Shown here: positions 30,965-35,195 of the stretch, in pieces
Layout: every line of letters begins with the position of its first letter
Position numbering within the stretch: position 1 is the stretch's first letter
Source of the DNA: Tricharina praecox
Taxonomy: Eukaryota
Assembly (NCBI RefSeq): GCF_024521635.1
Contig: NW_026250403.1
Location: forward strand, 1,550,001 to 1,614,000
Length of the DNA stretch: 64,000 nt
Direction: 5' to 3'
Notes under the pieces: generated by a model
Seen by the model: only the letters and a program-made list of their open reading frames with translations
What the model was told of the DNA's origin: nothing
Databases searched by the model: none
Position numbers and translations under genes: made by a program

Positions 30965-31900
30965 ATGACAGCCTCAATCCCCCTCAAGATCAAGAACGAA
31001 TACTACATACTACCACTAGCTCTCCCCGCAACCCCCTCCGGCGCCCCAGAAGCAACCCACATCCTCTACCTCCGGCGTCACCAACCGCGCATCCCCACAC
31101 CCAACGACAGCCGCACGCTCTTCGTCTCGAACCTTCCCGCCGACGCCACAGATGCGCACCTGCGCACCCTCCTCTCGTCACTCGGCGGCGGCCGCATAGA
31201 ATCCGTCAGCTTCAGCACCGACGCCGCCGCCCCTCCACCCCCCGCGCCCGCCGCTCCCACCACCATCGACTCCAGCACCAAGAAGCGCAAGCGCGCGATC
31301 ACCTCCGGAGGCGGCGAAGCCGCCGCGCTCGCCGCAGCCGCAGAGATCAGGACGTGGGACCGGGCGCTGCAGCGCAGCGGCGCGAACGGGCTCGCGGTAT
31401 TCGTTGACGACGCCAGCTGCGCGGGCGCGCTGCGGGCGATCGAGAAGCTGCGGCGGAAGTCGAAGACCGCGGCGGCACTGCCGGTGTGGGGCGAGGGCGT
31501 GGCCGGTGTTCCAGAGCTGGGGATCGCGAGGTATGCCGCGCATCATAGGCTGAGGTTCCCGGCGTCGGCGAGGCTGCAGGCGAGCGCGGACGCGTTTGTG
31601 GCTGCGTTTGGGGAGGCGGAGGAGGTGGCGAAACAACAGGCGGCCAAGAGGAGGAGTGTCGTCGATGAGGATGGGTTTGTTACTGTTACGAGGGGCGGCA
31701 GGGTTAAGCCTGCGACGCAAGAGGCGGCCAAGGCGGTATTGGATGAGAAGGAGAAGAGGAAGGGGGAGCTTAAGGGCTTTTATAGGTTCCAGATTAGAGA
31801 GGAGAAGAAGACGCGGCAGAACGAGCTGTTGGCGAAGTTTGAGGAGGACAGGAAACGCGTTGAGGAGAGGAAGAAGGGGAGGAAGTTTAGGCCCGAGTAA
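30965..31900 (+). CDS. RRP7: Ribosomal RNA-processing protein 7
   Basis: Intronless. RRM-like RTLFVSNLPADAT. C-terminal VDEDGFVTVTRG...FYRFQIREEKK...KFEEDRKRV...RKFRP. Confidence 0.93.
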   Translation: MTASIPLKIKNEYYILPLALPATPSGAPEATHILYLRRHQPRIPTPNDSRTLFVSNLPADATDAHLRTLLSSLGGGRIESVSFSTDAAAPPPPAPAAPTTIDSSTKKRKRAITSGGGEAAALAAAAEIRTWDRALQRSGANGLAVFVDDASCAGALRAIEKLRRKSKTAAALPVWGEGVAGVPELGIARYAAHHRLRFPASARLQASADAFVAAFGEAEEVAKQQAAKRRSVVDEDGFVTVTRGGRVKPATQEAAKAVLDEKEKRKGELKGFYRFQIREEKKTRQNELLAKFEEDRKRVEERKKGRKFRPE

Positions 31901-32059: not shown

Positions 32060-33612
32060 TCAAAATCCTTTTTCAGCCAGCTTATCTGGAGTATCGTGCA
32101 CCACATCAGCCACCGCTCCCCCACTACCCCACTACCCCAAGAAGAACTCACCAGTAATAGCGCAGTAAAATGCCAGCGCATTAAAGTCCCTCTTCACGCC
32201 GATCAAATTGCCCACCGCGAATCCAACACGATTGACCCAATTTATGATGCTGAGGTGATTGACGCCCACCAAGGTCCCTTCGTATGTCCCCCACCTTGCC
32301 GATTTGACGGATACCAGCCCGTCATTCGGACCCTCTGTTTCCTGGATTACGCGGTGCGGTGCGTACCAGATGTTGTAGAATTGAGGCGCGAAGGTGGCGC
32401 CGTATGAGAAGTAGCTGACGTTGGGGTCGTTGGGGACGGCCGGATTGAAGGTCTCGTCCATGTACTTCGTGGTGAGTTGTGAGAAGGCGCCGGTTTGGAA
32501 TCCCATCTTGTGAAGGACACGGTAGATCCGGGGTAGGTTATGCGCTATGGACGGAGTCAGAGAGACATATCTTGGACCGAAAGGGGGTTACAGACGTCCA
32601 ATAGTGGAAAACATGCGGTCGGCGAAGGATGAGCCTGTGAATATTAGCGAGTGATATAATGTGCTTCAGAATGTGGCCATACCATGGTGAGGAGTGGCAA
32701 CAGTCGTGAGAGACAGCACCTTGAAGTCGGTCGGTTTGAGTATACTGATCATATACCTGGCATCGATCCCACTATCGTAGCCAATTGGTCAGTCGACCAT
32801 CCACAGTTCCCCAAGGGGCCAAATACTCACCCCTAAACACTCCAATCCATACCCGCAGCCCACGTCAGCCCACTGTTCCTCCCACAGTATCAACCACGGT
32901 AAACGCACCATACTATGCCTACATGTCGTCAGTCCTATGTACCTCCCCCAGATTCCAGATGCGGCACACGTGGGCCTCCTACCCAATCAAATTAACACTC
33001 TTCCCGACGCCACCTGCCTTCCTGATCCCTTCCGCCAAAGCCTCGGCCCTCTGCTCGATCGTCGACGTCGGCGGAACTGTCGATACGATTACCTGCACCC
33101 CACGGGCCTGGAGGCAATCTGAGATTCCACGCCAGTCTACCACACGGACGGGTCAATAGCTGTAGCGATAGTGTCAATGGGAGGGAGGGAGGGAGAGAAC
33201 GTTACATTCGATCCCCGGAATCCAGTTCCCCGCCAGTCGCAGTTTGTCAAAGCCCATCAAGCCATGGCACTAAGTACTCTCTACATCAGCCCTCCCGGTC
33301 CCCTCCCTTCGTCCTCCTCCTTAGGGTGGCACACACCAAAACAACCGGATTCTTCGGTGCCTCTATGTACATATCACCCGATCAGCCGTCACCTCCCTAG
33401 ACAACCCAACTCAACCAACACGACGGGTACCTACTATAACTCTCCCTCAAATCGGCGAACTCATCCTTCAACTCGCGCACACGGGGGTCTTCCCACGCCT
33501 TCTGTTTCGCCTCGTTGCTGTCGGCTCTCGGCCCGGTTGCTGTGCCTGTGGAGTAGAAGCGGATCCAGATCAGAGCTGGCGGACGGCCGCGGACCATTGT
33601 GATGCAGTTCAT
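32060..33612 (-). CDS. TGL2: Triacylglycerol lipase, alpha/beta hydrolase (Tgl2-like, probable mitochondrial presequence)
   Basis: 10 exons: 33612-33435, 33362-33337, 33269-33206, 33136-32983, 32918-32909, 32832-32831, 32771-32683, 32634-32596, 32544-32152, 32085-32060 (981 nt, in frame). Motifs PVVLCHGLMGFD, YWRGI, VNLIGHSMGGIDARY, TVATPHHGS, NDGLVSV, NHL. Confidence 0.9.
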
Positions 33613-34258: not shown

Positions 34259-35195
34259 TTACCTCCTCTTACGATCTCCCATCAAGCCACCGAGCCGTCC
34301 CTTGAGCCTCCTCCTGCCAGCATTCGATGTCCAGGCAGTGCTTCCAACTTCACCAAACGACGAATCGTCCAGATCCATACCGTCATCTTCTTCCACGTTG
34401 CCCCTAAAATCTTCAGCGCTCTCCGAGATAACCCTCTTTCCCTTGCCACCAACCGCCTTATCCTGATTCTTGAGCTCCTCCTTCCTAGCTGCAACAAACT
34501 TCTCGTACTCCTCGCTGTCCTTCTTCTTCCGCAGCGCCTCTCGATTCACCTTCTCCATCTGCTCGTCGATATCTGCAAGGACATCATCACACTGTTTGCA
34601 CCAAGCGTTCAACGTTTCCACCATGCTCTGGATCTCGACCGGCGCCACGTCGCGTCCAGCGGTAGAAGAGACTTCGACCAGCTGCGACGCAGTATCGAGC
34701 TTCGCATGTAGCAATCCCGCGTAGATGGCCGAGATGATGAGGTCCTCCAGGATGCGGACGCTTGGGAGCTCGAGCGACTTCAGGAGGGACGGGTATGTGA
34801 GGTGTTCCGATCCGCGCGACGCAATGGTGATCAGCGAGAGCTGCTTGAGCTTTTCGAGCTGCTTCTCGTTGAGCGCGGGGAGGTTCGGGTTCGCTGTTAC
34901 ACCTTAGCCTACCTAGGCACGAGCATTCAATCGCGGCCGCACGGAACGGATGTTACTTACTCCGGTATTCTGCTAAGCTGCCGTAGGCAAAGATCCTGAG
35001 GAGCTCAAAGTATGGGAGTCCGTCGGGGTTGGACGAGAGAGCTTGGATGCCGGGGCATTCGAGGAGCTCGGAGAAGACGTAGGTGCCTGGCGCTTGGGTA
35101 GCCTGCACCACTAGGTCCGCGGCTGCTCGACCCGTAGCATTCTTTGCGAGCAGGATGAAGGGTTGTAGAGCTGTGATGTATCTCTGGTCGGCCAT
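34259..35195 (-). CDS. CSN7: COP9 signalosome subunit 7 (PCI domain)
   Basis: Exons 35195-34961 and 34893-34259. LQPFILLAKNATGRAAADLVVQATQAPGTYVFSELL, LLRIFAYG, KLKQLSLITIAS, LEDLIISAIYAGLLHAKLD...GRDV. Confidence 0.9.

What the first reader, a model, noticed from the sequence alone, without database searches (positions are those of the whole stretch)
32771..32983. Obligatory 2-nucleotide exon inside the lipase catalytic motif (GHSMG split over four exons)
Seen (minus strand): the nucleophile elbow is assembled as GG | G CAT AGT ATG (10-nt exon 32918-32909) | GG (2-nt exon 32832-32831) | T GGG ATC GAT, giving GHSMGGIDARY. The GG dinucleotide is flanked by a complete upstream intron (GTGCGT...GCTGAC...TTTAG) and a complete downstream intron (GTGAGT...ACTGAC...GATAG). 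Skipping it frameshifts the protein right after the catalytic Ser; including it makes the 981-nt CDS in frame. Established: GxSxG is the lipase motif, and 1-3 nt exons are very rare and usually missed by gene finders and aligners. Inference: this requires ordered intron-definition splicing and could work as an on/off (NMD) switch for the lipase.
Basis: partly seen in the sequence, partly recalled or inferred. Interest (0 to 1): 0.8.

Follow-up and report, generated by a model that had tools for sequence, protein, structure and literature searches.

The report
Ancient two-base exon in a lipase gene
A fungal lipase gene really does carry an exon only two bases long (GG) inside the codons of its catalytic motif; spliced RNA contains it, and the same layout recurs in many distant relatives, where gene predictors often get it wrong.

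Summary
On the minus strand a Tgl2-like lipase gene has 10 exons. GHSMG-G is assembled from exon 4, a 10-nt exon (32918-32909), a 2-nt exon GG (32832-32831) and exon 7.

Spliced contigs in three public runs from three studies lack all nine introns. They carry exactly 12 letters between exon 4 and exon 7, which equals the 10-nt exon plus GG.

The layout is not a one-off. Of 80 related metagenome loci, 25 show the same AG|GG|GT(GC) arrangement. Each flanking intron also occurs alone in other lineages. The window groups with Pyronemataceae. The other carriers group with Dothideomycetes, Lecanoromycetes and a Penicillium, so the exon probably predates the classes of Pezizomycotina (weak tree).

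Public protein models are often wrong here, with HSMG deleted or the Gly replaced.

The proposed NMD switch has no support, and the splicing order is untested. Exons of 1-3 nt are already described in fungi (PMC12230235, PMC12940212). This is a new, well-supported and unusually old member of a known kind.

The parts
32060..33612 (-). Whole CDS of the Tgl2-like lipase: 10 exons and 9 introns of 48-76 nt. It is 981 nt (326 aa) from the ATG at 33612, or 966 nt from the ATG at 33597. Ser143, Asp262 and His284 in 326-aa numbering.
   Evidence: model built by coordinates. (joints of spliced contigs X3, X4, X6 match the borders; the X3 contig reaches 33641).
32983..33136 (-). Exon 4 (154 nt). It ends ...AAT TTG ATT GG and supplies the first two bases of the first Gly of GHSMG.
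32919..32982 (-). Intron 4 (64 nt, GTAGGA..GACTGAC..TGTAG).
   Evidence: Removed in X3, X4 and X6 contigs. Present at the same place in 24 of 80 related loci.
32909..32918 (-). Exon 5, a 10-nt exon GCATAGTATG. It codes the third base of the Gly, then His, the nucleophile Ser and Met.
   Evidence: Its letters lie between the two sides of the joint (table 5c).
32833..32908 (-). Intron 5 (76 nt, phase 0, GTGCGT..GCTGAC..TTTAG).
   Evidence: The same position holds the only intron in 11 loci by pattern, plus 3 read by eye.
32831..32832 (-). Exon 6, the 2-nt exon GG. It codes the first two bases of the last Gly of GxSxG.
   Evidence: 12 letters between exon 4 and exon 7. (the only canonical solution). 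(AG|GG|GY in 25 of 80 loci).
32772..32830 (-). Intron 6 (59 nt, phase 2, GTGAGT..ACTGAC..GATAG).
   Evidence: The same position holds the only intron in L004.
32683..32771 (-). Exon 7 (89 nt). It starts T GGG ATC GAT, giving the third base of the Gly and then GIDARY...

Best explanation
The GG at 32832-32831 is a constitutive internal exon of two nucleotides in a Tgl2-like mitochondrial-type lipase gene of a Pezizomycete (Pyronemataceae-like). It lies between two ordinary short U2-type introns. Intron 5 is phase 0 and sits after the Met codon of GHSM. Intron 6 is phase 2 and sits inside the next Gly codon. Each intron has its own donor, branch-site-like CTGAC and YAG acceptor.

Shown: the mature RNA contains exon 5 + GG + exon 7.

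Inferred: the two introns are removed in two separate, probably consecutive, canonical splicing reactions. Once either is out, the other is a normal intron between normal-sized exons. Either order gives the same product.

Inferred from comparison: intron 5 is the older one, since it is also found alone in basidiomycete-like and Taphrinomycotina-like loci. Introns 4 and 6 were added beside it before the split of Pezizomycetes from the other Pezizomycotina classes. The trio has since been either kept or lost, mostly all together. Such concerted loss would fit replacement by a spliced copy; the fit to that mechanism is my inference from general knowledge.

The exon persists because it lies in an invariant motif where no slippage of a border is tolerated, not because it needs a function of its own.
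For: **In the window**
- Anatomy and frames.
- Spliced contigs in X3, X4 and X6 (three studies) carry exactly GCATAGTATG+GG between exon 4 and exon 7. All their other joints fall on GT..AG borders.
- Brute force gives 1 canonical solution among 182 two-deletion solutions. The only single-deletion solution has TG..TA borders.
- The nine introns of the gene are 48-76 nt. A fused 137-nt intron would be about twice the size of any of them.

**In the 80 related loci**
- 24 have introns 4+5+6.
- 1 has introns 5+6 (L072).
- 11 have intron 5 only (+3 read by eye).
- 1 has intron 6 only (L004).
- 32 have none (+1 read by eye).
- No locus has a long gap without the internal AG|GG|GY.

**Signals not forced by my search pattern, in 24 distinct sequences**
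- Pyrimidine at -3 of intron 5 in 24 of 24.
- YTRAY 5-35 nt before the acceptor in 21 of 24 (intron 5) and 23 of 24 (intron 6).
- A or G at +3 of intron 6 in 22 of 24.
- Elsewhere the flanks carry little information (0.01-0.4 bit per position).

**Placement and annotation**
- Tree: the window sits with three Pyronemataceae (support 99). Carriers sit with Aureobasidium, Pleosporales, Meristemomyces, Lecanoromycetes and a Penicillium.
- Annotated homologues with a damaged motif: 6 of 72 and 6 of 113.
Against: - No run is on record as RNA. X3 and X4 are 'RNA?' guesses and X6 is 'DNA?'. That the contigs come from RNA is my deduction from their lacking all introns.
- Contigs show neither intermediates nor rare isoforms.
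- Intron 5 begins with G and intron 6 ends with G. The mRNA alone therefore cannot tell the 2-nt exon from a single TG..TA intron. The choice rests on splice-signal logic and comparison.
- Use of the exon in the other lineages is inferred from DNA only. No genomic/transcript pair of one species was found.
- My pattern forced AG-GG-G[TC], so the invariance of those columns is by construction.
- The taxonomic placement of metagenome loci rests on similarity and on a FastTree of 128 columns with many open forks.
- No genomic locus of a close relative (above 58% identity) could be read.
Confidence: 0.9

Rival explanations
1. There is one non-canonical intron of 135 nt (32907-32773, borders TG..TA). 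The two G's of the mRNA come from the first base of 'intron 5' and the last base of 'intron 6', and there is no 2-nt exon.
For:: this is the only single deletion that reproduces the mRNA seen. The mRNA alone cannot exclude it.
Against: - TG..TA borders are not used by the spliceosome (established knowledge).
- The internal AG|GG|GY is present in all 25 loci that have a long gap here. Each half has its own branch-like motif and typical length.
- Each half exists alone as a normal intron in other loci: L004, L013, L056-L067.
Confidence: 0.02
2. It is an assembly or sequencing indel. The real gene has a single intron and the frame problem is an artefact.
For: None found.
Against: - DNA contigs of X1 match the window over the microexon and both flanks with no difference, though X1 may be the same sample.
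- Spliced contigs of three other runs contain the GG.
- The same layout is found in 23 further distinct sequences.
Confidence: 0.01
3. Inclusion of GG is regulated. Skipping it gives a frameshifted, NMD-prone mRNA and turns the lipase off. A variant I add: skipping both tiny exons (12 nt) gives an in-frame protein without His-Ser-Met-Gly, a serine-less isoform.
For: -: skipping GG shifts the frame.
- the stop then falls 4 nt into exon 9, 389 nt before the last junction. Skipping both tiny exons stays in frame.
- Long conservation of an awkward structure could mean that it is used.
Against: - No alternative form appears in the contigs of three runs, which is weak evidence because contigs drop rare forms.
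- Many lineages lost all three introns (32 of 80 loci), so the arrangement is dispensable.
- Flanking intron sequence is not conserved beyond splice signals.
- No unusual RNA fold is present (z = 0.22).
Confidence: 0.1
4. The three-intron layout arose more than once: in the window's lineage and separately in Dothideomycetes, Lecanoromycetes and Eurotiomycetes. It was not inherited from the Pezizomycotina ancestor.
For: - The tree is weak.
- Named Pezizomycetes such as Tuber, Kalaharituber, Morchella and Pyronema have correct annotated motifs, which could mean they lack these introns.
- L004 (Tuber-like) has intron 6 only.
Against: - Three introns at identical positions and phases, around the same 10-nt and 2-nt exons, in both groups.
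- Annotated Trichophaea, Sphaerosporella and Rhizina proteins show the damage expected from the same layout.
- Partial states (011, 001, 010) look like stages of loss.
Confidence: 0.1

Closest known systems
One-nucleotide exon of Fusarium CYP621A P450 genes (Nelson & Syed 2026, PMC12940212; whole main text read, supplements not seen)
   Same: - An ultra-short exon made of G, framed AG|G|GT.
- It lies inside a Gly codon of an invariant motif.
- It sits between two short fungal introns.
- It is needed for the frame and confirmed by transcript reads.
- It is conserved among orthologues and missed by almost all public gene models.
   Different: - Two nucleotides rather than one.
- A lipase, not a P450.
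- It sits next to a second tiny exon of 10 nt.
- It is spread over several classes of Pezizomycotina rather than one genus.
- Each flanking intron is also found alone in other lineages. That points to origin by addition of an intron beside an older one, rather than the base-loss rescue those authors propose.
Exons of 1-3 nt in the long-read annotation of Coprinopsis cinerea (PMC12230235; passages read, supplementary figure not seen)
   Same: 2-nt exons in a fungus, found with transcript data. Omitting them breaks the frame.
   Different: That is a genome-wide count (57 exons of 2 nt in 50 genes) in a basidiomycete. The passages I read do not address conservation. In the basidiomycete-like loci of this lipase only intron 5 is present.
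Single-nucleotide exon of Arabidopsis APC11 (PMC4674806; search listing only) and conserved plant microexons (PMC8831610; search listing only)
   Same: Constitutive, frame-keeping ultra-short exons that annotation misses. The plant microexons are described as evolutionarily conserved.
   Different: Plants, long introns, other genes.
Spliceosomal twin introns (stwintrons) of Pezizomycotina (PMC5639578, PMC6616335; passages read)
   Same: Two short U2 introns lying together and removed by consecutive reactions. Gene finders handle them badly, and they are traced by comparison across classes.
   Different: In a stwintron the inner intron interrupts a splice signal of the outer one and nothing stays in the mRNA. 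Here both introns are complete in the primary transcript and 2 nt remain. The 'lipS' lipase of that work belongs to a different family (Pfam07859).
Recursive splicing at ratchet points (abutting introns; mentioned in PMC6616335; otherwise recalled)
   Same: A 3' splice site lies directly followed by a 5' splice site. Removal is stepwise.
   Different: A ratchet point leaves no exon letters. Here GG is kept and is coding.
Yeast Tgl2, a mitochondrial intermembrane-space lipase (PMC11889585; passages read)
   Same: - The (G/A)xSxG elbow.
- A similar catalytic triad: Ser143, Asp262, His284 here against S144, D259, H281 in Tgl2.
- Asp-to-His spacing of 22 in both.
- Similarity to bacterial family I lipases such as LipA 1EX9 (tested on homologue P0017).
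   Different: I did not compare directly with the yeast sequence. The name 'related to TGL2' comes from a source's label on homologue P0097. Location and activity are untested.

Membership tests
Ultra-short internal exon (3 nt or less) between canonical U2-type introns | The exon's letters are present in the mature RNA at that junction | tested here: met
   X3, X4 and X6 contigs carry 12 letters (10-nt exon + GG) between exon 4 and exon 7.
Ultra-short internal exon (3 nt or less) between canonical U2-type introns | Both flanking introns have their own canonical donor, branch-site-like motif and acceptor | tested here: met
   GTGCGT..GCTGAC..TTTAG and GTGAGT..ACTGAC..GATAG. This is the only canonical solution of 182.
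Ultra-short internal exon (3 nt or less) between canonical U2-type introns | Not explained by an assembly error | tested here: met
   (DNA and RNA contigs agree). (24 distinct sequences share the layout).
Ultra-short internal exon (3 nt or less) between canonical U2-type introns | Two separate splicing events (intermediates or two lariats) | not testable with these tools
   Only assembled contigs were available and they show no intermediate. Indirect support: each intron exists alone in other loci.
Stwintron (nested twin intron) | An inner intron interrupts the donor, branch site or acceptor of an outer intron, and no letters between them stay in the mRNA | tested here: not met
   all six signals are intact in the primary sequence and GG stays in the mRNA.
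Recursive splice site (zero-length exon) | AG|GT are juxtaposed with nothing retained | tested here: not met
   AG|GG|GT, with two letters retained.
Regulated (alternative) microexon or NMD switch | Included and skipped forms both exist and change with condition | tested here: inconclusive
   only the included form is seen in contigs of three runs. Contigs drop rare variants, and raw reads were not available.
Tgl2-like / bacterial family I type lipase (alpha/beta hydrolase) | Nucleophile elbow (G/A)xSxG | tested here: met
   GHSMG after splicing. It is conserved as [AG]HSMG in the homologues.
Tgl2-like / bacterial family I type lipase (alpha/beta hydrolase) | Catalytic Asp and His at the family's positions | tested here: met
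   the D of NDGLVSV is invariant in 27 of 27 and the H is nearly invariant. Asp262, His284, spacing 22, as in Tgl2 D259/H281 (PMC11889585).
Tgl2-like / bacterial family I type lipase (alpha/beta hydrolase) | Sequence similarity to solved family I lipases and alpha/beta-hydrolase profiles | tested here: met
   Tested on homologues, not on the window's own joined protein. P0017 against 1EX9 and 1CVL, E from 1e-13 to 1e-17. PGAP1 and DUF676 above their cut-offs for P0002 and P0017. The single exons of the window gave no Pfam hit.
Tgl2-like / bacterial family I type lipase (alpha/beta hydrolase) | Lipase activity and mitochondrial location | not testable with these tools

The most novel reading that the evidence does not exclude
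The pair of tiny exons (10 nt + 2 nt) has been kept since the ancestor of Pezizomycotina because it acts as a three-way splicing gate on the catalytic serine. Full inclusion gives the active lipase. Skipping GG alone gives a frameshifted mRNA that is degraded. Skipping both (12 nt, in frame) gives a stable serine-less protein that could act as a non-catalytic or dominant-negative partner; yeast Tgl2 forms dimers (PMC11889585).
Probability: 0.08. Interest if true: 0.75.

Novelty: new member of a known kind. Interest (0 to 1): 0.42.

Why it matters
1. It is a clean, transcript-backed case of a 2-nt exon in an ascomycete, lying in the codons of an enzyme's nucleophile elbow.

2. The same exon recurs in lineages that group with at least four classes. 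Exons at the lower size limit can therefore be stable over very long times, and here they are mostly lost together with their neighbours. This bears on how introns are gained next to each other and lost together.

3. It has a practical cost. Public protein models of this lipase lack the catalytic serine or carry a wrong residue in several named fungi (Sphaerosporella, Meristemomyces, Xylographa, Trichophaea, Bathelium, Xylona, Lasallia and some I recall as Pleosporales). Function prediction from those models would wrongly call the enzyme dead.

4. The locus is a natural test bed for how a spliceosome deals with a 3' and a 5' splice site 2 nt apart under intron definition.

Tried and rejected
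- No RNA holder listed. I laid the two 'RNA?' guesses, one 'DNA?' run and the best DNA holder instead.
- The whole genome of the window is not held, so other tiny exons of this organism could not be surveyed.
- The metagenome scan found no close relative. The best hit is 58% identity in exon 9. The state in Pyronema, Trichophaea and Sphaerosporella is therefore inferred from their annotated proteins only.
- I looked for a genomic locus and a spliced contig of one species among the 80 loci, to show use of the exon in a second lineage. None was found.
- I looked at contig ends for poly(A) to tell transcripts from DNA. Nothing was decisive. L013 (intron 5 only, no other interruption) may be a partly spliced transcript or a genome with partial loss; this is left open.
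- RNA fold of 32760-32925: z = 0.22, no sign of a special structure.
- Pfam on single exons of the window: no hit.
- Earlier notes of this scan: none.
- Literature searches for a prior report of this lipase's tiny exon, or of 2-nt exons under other wordings, found none for this gene. Subscription journals are not covered. The supplements of PMC12230235 and PMC12940212, which may list genes with 2-nt exons, were not seen.
- Stwintron and ratchet-point readings were considered and rejected (see membership test).
- P0182 did not match my motif pattern. I did not look at why and do not count it.

Full report
**Observation.** Read on the minus strand, the region holds a gene of ten exons. I rebuilt it by coordinates:

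- exon 1: 33597-33435, or from the in-frame ATG at 33612
- exon 2: 33362-33337
- exon 3: 33269-33206
- exon 4: 33136-32983
- exon 5: 32918-32909
- exon 6: 32832-32831
- exon 7: 32771-32683
- exon 8: 32634-32596
- exon 9: 32544-32152
- exon 10: 32085-32060

The nine introns are 48-76 nt long.

Intron 5 is 76 nt (GTGCGT..GCTGAC..TTTAG) and intron 6 is 59 nt (GTGAGT..ACTGAC..GATAG). Leaving out GG, or keeping either intron, shifts the frame. Keeping both introns runs into a TGA.

**Transcript evidence.** No run is on record as RNA. Even so, the contigs of X3 and X4 ('RNA?' guesses) and of X6 ('DNA?'), which come from three studies, are spliced.

- The X3 contig skips every intron. It does so in seven joints, one of which spans introns 4-6. 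All joints match my borders.
- X4 shows six of these joints and X6 shows three.
- At the site in question all three runs join 32982 to 32772 with ten letters between.
- The aligner absorbed one G on each side into the genome (the first base of intron 4 and the last base of intron 6). The RNA therefore has exactly 12 letters between exon 4 and exon 7: the 10-nt exon followed by GG.

The DNA contigs of X1 keep the introns and agree with the window without a difference over 32153-32858 and 32877-33217. X1 may be the window's own sample, so this is not independent. It does, together with the RNA contigs, remove the indel explanation.

**Is the GG an exon?** Intron 5 starts with G and intron 6 ends with G. 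The same mRNA would therefore also result from one deletion, 32907-32773. Brute force gave these results:

- That is the only single deletion that works, and its borders are TG..TA.
- Among 182 two-deletion solutions, only one has GT/GC..AG on all four borders.

**Comparison.** The closest named homologues of the largest exon are Pyronemataceae. Trichophaea and Pyronema reach 70-71% and Sphaerosporella 68%.

No genome is held for the window. I therefore scanned metagenome contigs with an alignment of the exon-9 region and obtained 80 loci at 39-60% identity. Reading the motif region and parsing it with a pattern gave:

| State of introns 4, 5, 6 | Loci (of 80) | Notes |
|---|---|---|
| 4+5+6 present, with the same 10-nt and 2-nt exons | 24 | |
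| 5+6 only | 1 | L072 |
| 5 only | 11 | plus L057, L071, L073 by eye; their introns are shorter than my pattern allowed |
| 6 only | 1 | L004, Tuber-like |
| none | 32 | plus L007 by eye |
| not parsed | 11 | includes the four read by eye above |

Of the other seven unparsed loci, four lack the region and three are cut within it. One of the three, L043, still shows ..ATAG|GG|GTAATT.

After merging three near-identical pairs, the 25 carriers represent 22 lineages. No locus has a long gap here without the internal AG|GG|GY.

I then examined 24 distinct sequences, the window included. These signals were not forced by my pattern:

- a pyrimidine at -3 of intron 5 in 24 of 24
- a YTRAY motif 5-35 nt before the acceptor in 21 of 24 (intron 5) and 23 of 24 (intron 6)
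- A or G at +3 of intron 6 in 22 of 24
- two GC donors (L050, L051)

Median lengths are 52 nt for intron 5 and 53.5 nt for intron 6. The rest of the flanks carries almost no information. Each intron also occurs alone as an ordinary intron in other lineages. This settles the choice in favour of two introns and a 2-nt exon.

**Age.** I built a FastTree of the exon-9 region. It has 128 columns and many open forks, so it is only a guide.

- The window sits with the three Pyronemataceae (support 99).
- The carriers sit with Aureobasidium, Pleosporales, Meristemomyces, Lecanoromycetes (L079/L080) and a Penicillium (L044, L072).
- Loci without these introns sit with Leotiomycetes, Sordariomycetes, Exophiala/Endocarpon and some Lecanoromycetes.
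- Loci with intron 5 only sit with Tremellales-like sequences and with a group next to Savitreella.

The class names for Trichophaea, Meristemomyces, Xylographa, Xylona, Lasallia and Bathelium were looked up. Those of the Pleosporales genera are recalled.

The simplest reading has four parts:

- Intron 5 is old.
- Introns 4 and 6 joined it before Pezizomycetes split from the other classes.
- The trio was later lost several times, usually all at once (32 'none' against 2 partial states within Pezizomycotina-like loci).
- Such all-at-once loss would fit replacement by a spliced copy. The fit to that mechanism is my inference from general knowledge.

Separate gains are not excluded; I put them at about 0.1.

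**Annotation errors.** The damage seen in public protein models is:

- Among 72 homologues aligned, six are damaged exactly here. Sphaerosporella, Meristemomyces and Xylographa lack four residues. Trichophaea has V for the Gly. Bathelium has DS. Rhizina has a large gap.
- Losing four residues corresponds to both tiny exons being skipped. That removes 12 nt, so the frame is kept and the catalytic Ser is lost.
- Among 113 further homologues, six carry S, R, AR or NS at this place: Xylona, Dothidotthia, Decorospora, Clathrospora, Neocucurbitaria and Lasallia. One more, P0182, did not match my pattern and was not examined.

These are the traces expected from gene finders forcing a frame across an unseen 2-nt exon. 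That is an inference, since their DNA was not read.

**Mechanism.**

- Shown: the mature RNA includes GG.
- Inferred: there are two canonical, consecutive splicing reactions. A 3' splice site and a 5' splice site 2 nt apart can hardly be occupied at once (general knowledge of spliceosome size). After either intron is removed, the other lies between normal exons.
- The sequence gives no hint of the order. The three bases before the donor of intron 6 are GGG both before and after removal of intron 5 (my reading of the bases).
- No special RNA fold is present.

Skipping GG puts a stop 4 nt into exon 9. But it has no support: only the full form is seen (weak), and many lineages do without the introns.

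**The protein.** After splicing it has GHSMG, with Ser143, Asp262 and His284. The Asp is invariant and the His nearly invariant among homologues. Yeast Tgl2 has S144, D259 and H281, and its nearest structural relative is LipA 1EX9 (PMC11889585, passages read). Homologue P0017 matches 1EX9 and other family I lipases. P0002 and P0017 pass the PGAP1 and DUF676 profiles. I did not compare directly with the yeast sequence.

**What is known.**

- A 1-nt exon (AG|G|GT, inside a Gly codon of a conserved motif) was reported in Fusarium CYP621A in 2026 (PMC12940212, main text read).
- Coprinopsis cinerea has 57 exons of 2 nt in 50 genes (PMC12230235, passages read).
- Arabidopsis has a 1-nt exon (PMC4674806, listing only).
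- Stwintrons (PMC5639578, PMC6616335, passages read) differ because an inner intron breaks a signal of the outer one and nothing is retained.
- My searches found no report of this lipase's tiny exons. Subscription journals and the supplements of the two fungal papers were not seen.

**Verdict.** The structural interpretation is right. The regulatory interpretation is unsupported. It is a new member of a known kind. It is of moderate interest for its age, its position in a catalytic motif and the annotation errors it causes.

Noticed in passing
window 32831-32918 (both tiny exons together): Skipping the 10-nt and the 2-nt exon together removes 12 nt. The frame is kept and exactly His-Ser-Met-Gly is deleted. 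Three public protein models (P0003, P0023, P0030) have just this deletion.
   Followed up: partly
window 33610-33612 (minus strand): An in-frame ATG lies 15 nt upstream of the ATG at 33597. Both lie inside the spliced contigs (X3 reaches 33641, X4 reaches 33622). Which start is used is open.
   Followed up: partly
window 30965-31897 (+): An RRP7 gene (Pfam RRP7 and RRM_Rrp7) is convergent with the lipase. The X3 contig runs 317 letters beyond 31950, so the assembled RNA contig reaches into the 3' end of RRP7. This may be overlapping convergent transcripts or a merged contig.
   Followed up: no
window 34262-34903 (-): An exon of a COP9 signalosome subunit 7-like gene (PCI and CSN7a_helixI) lies upstream of the lipase on the same strand.
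   Followed up: no
L050 and L051, intron after the GG: In these two related loci the intron after the 2-nt exon starts GCATGT, a GC donor directly after the tiny exon.
   Followed up: no
L013 (1101 nt): The only interruption in the whole reading frame is intron 5 (51 nt, in frame). Its neighbour in the tree, L018, has all three introns. L013 could be a partly spliced transcript, with intron 6 removed before intron 5, or a genome with partial loss.
   Followed up: partly
L056-L067, L071, L073: At the position of intron 5 these loci have very short introns of 32-43 nt. They fall into a Tremellales-like group and a group placed next to Savitreella.
   Followed up: no
L004 (Tuber-like): This locus has only the phase-2 intron (ATGGG|GTAAAT..TTCAG|G) and not introns 4 and 5. 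It is the one case of the younger intron surviving alone.
   Followed up: partly
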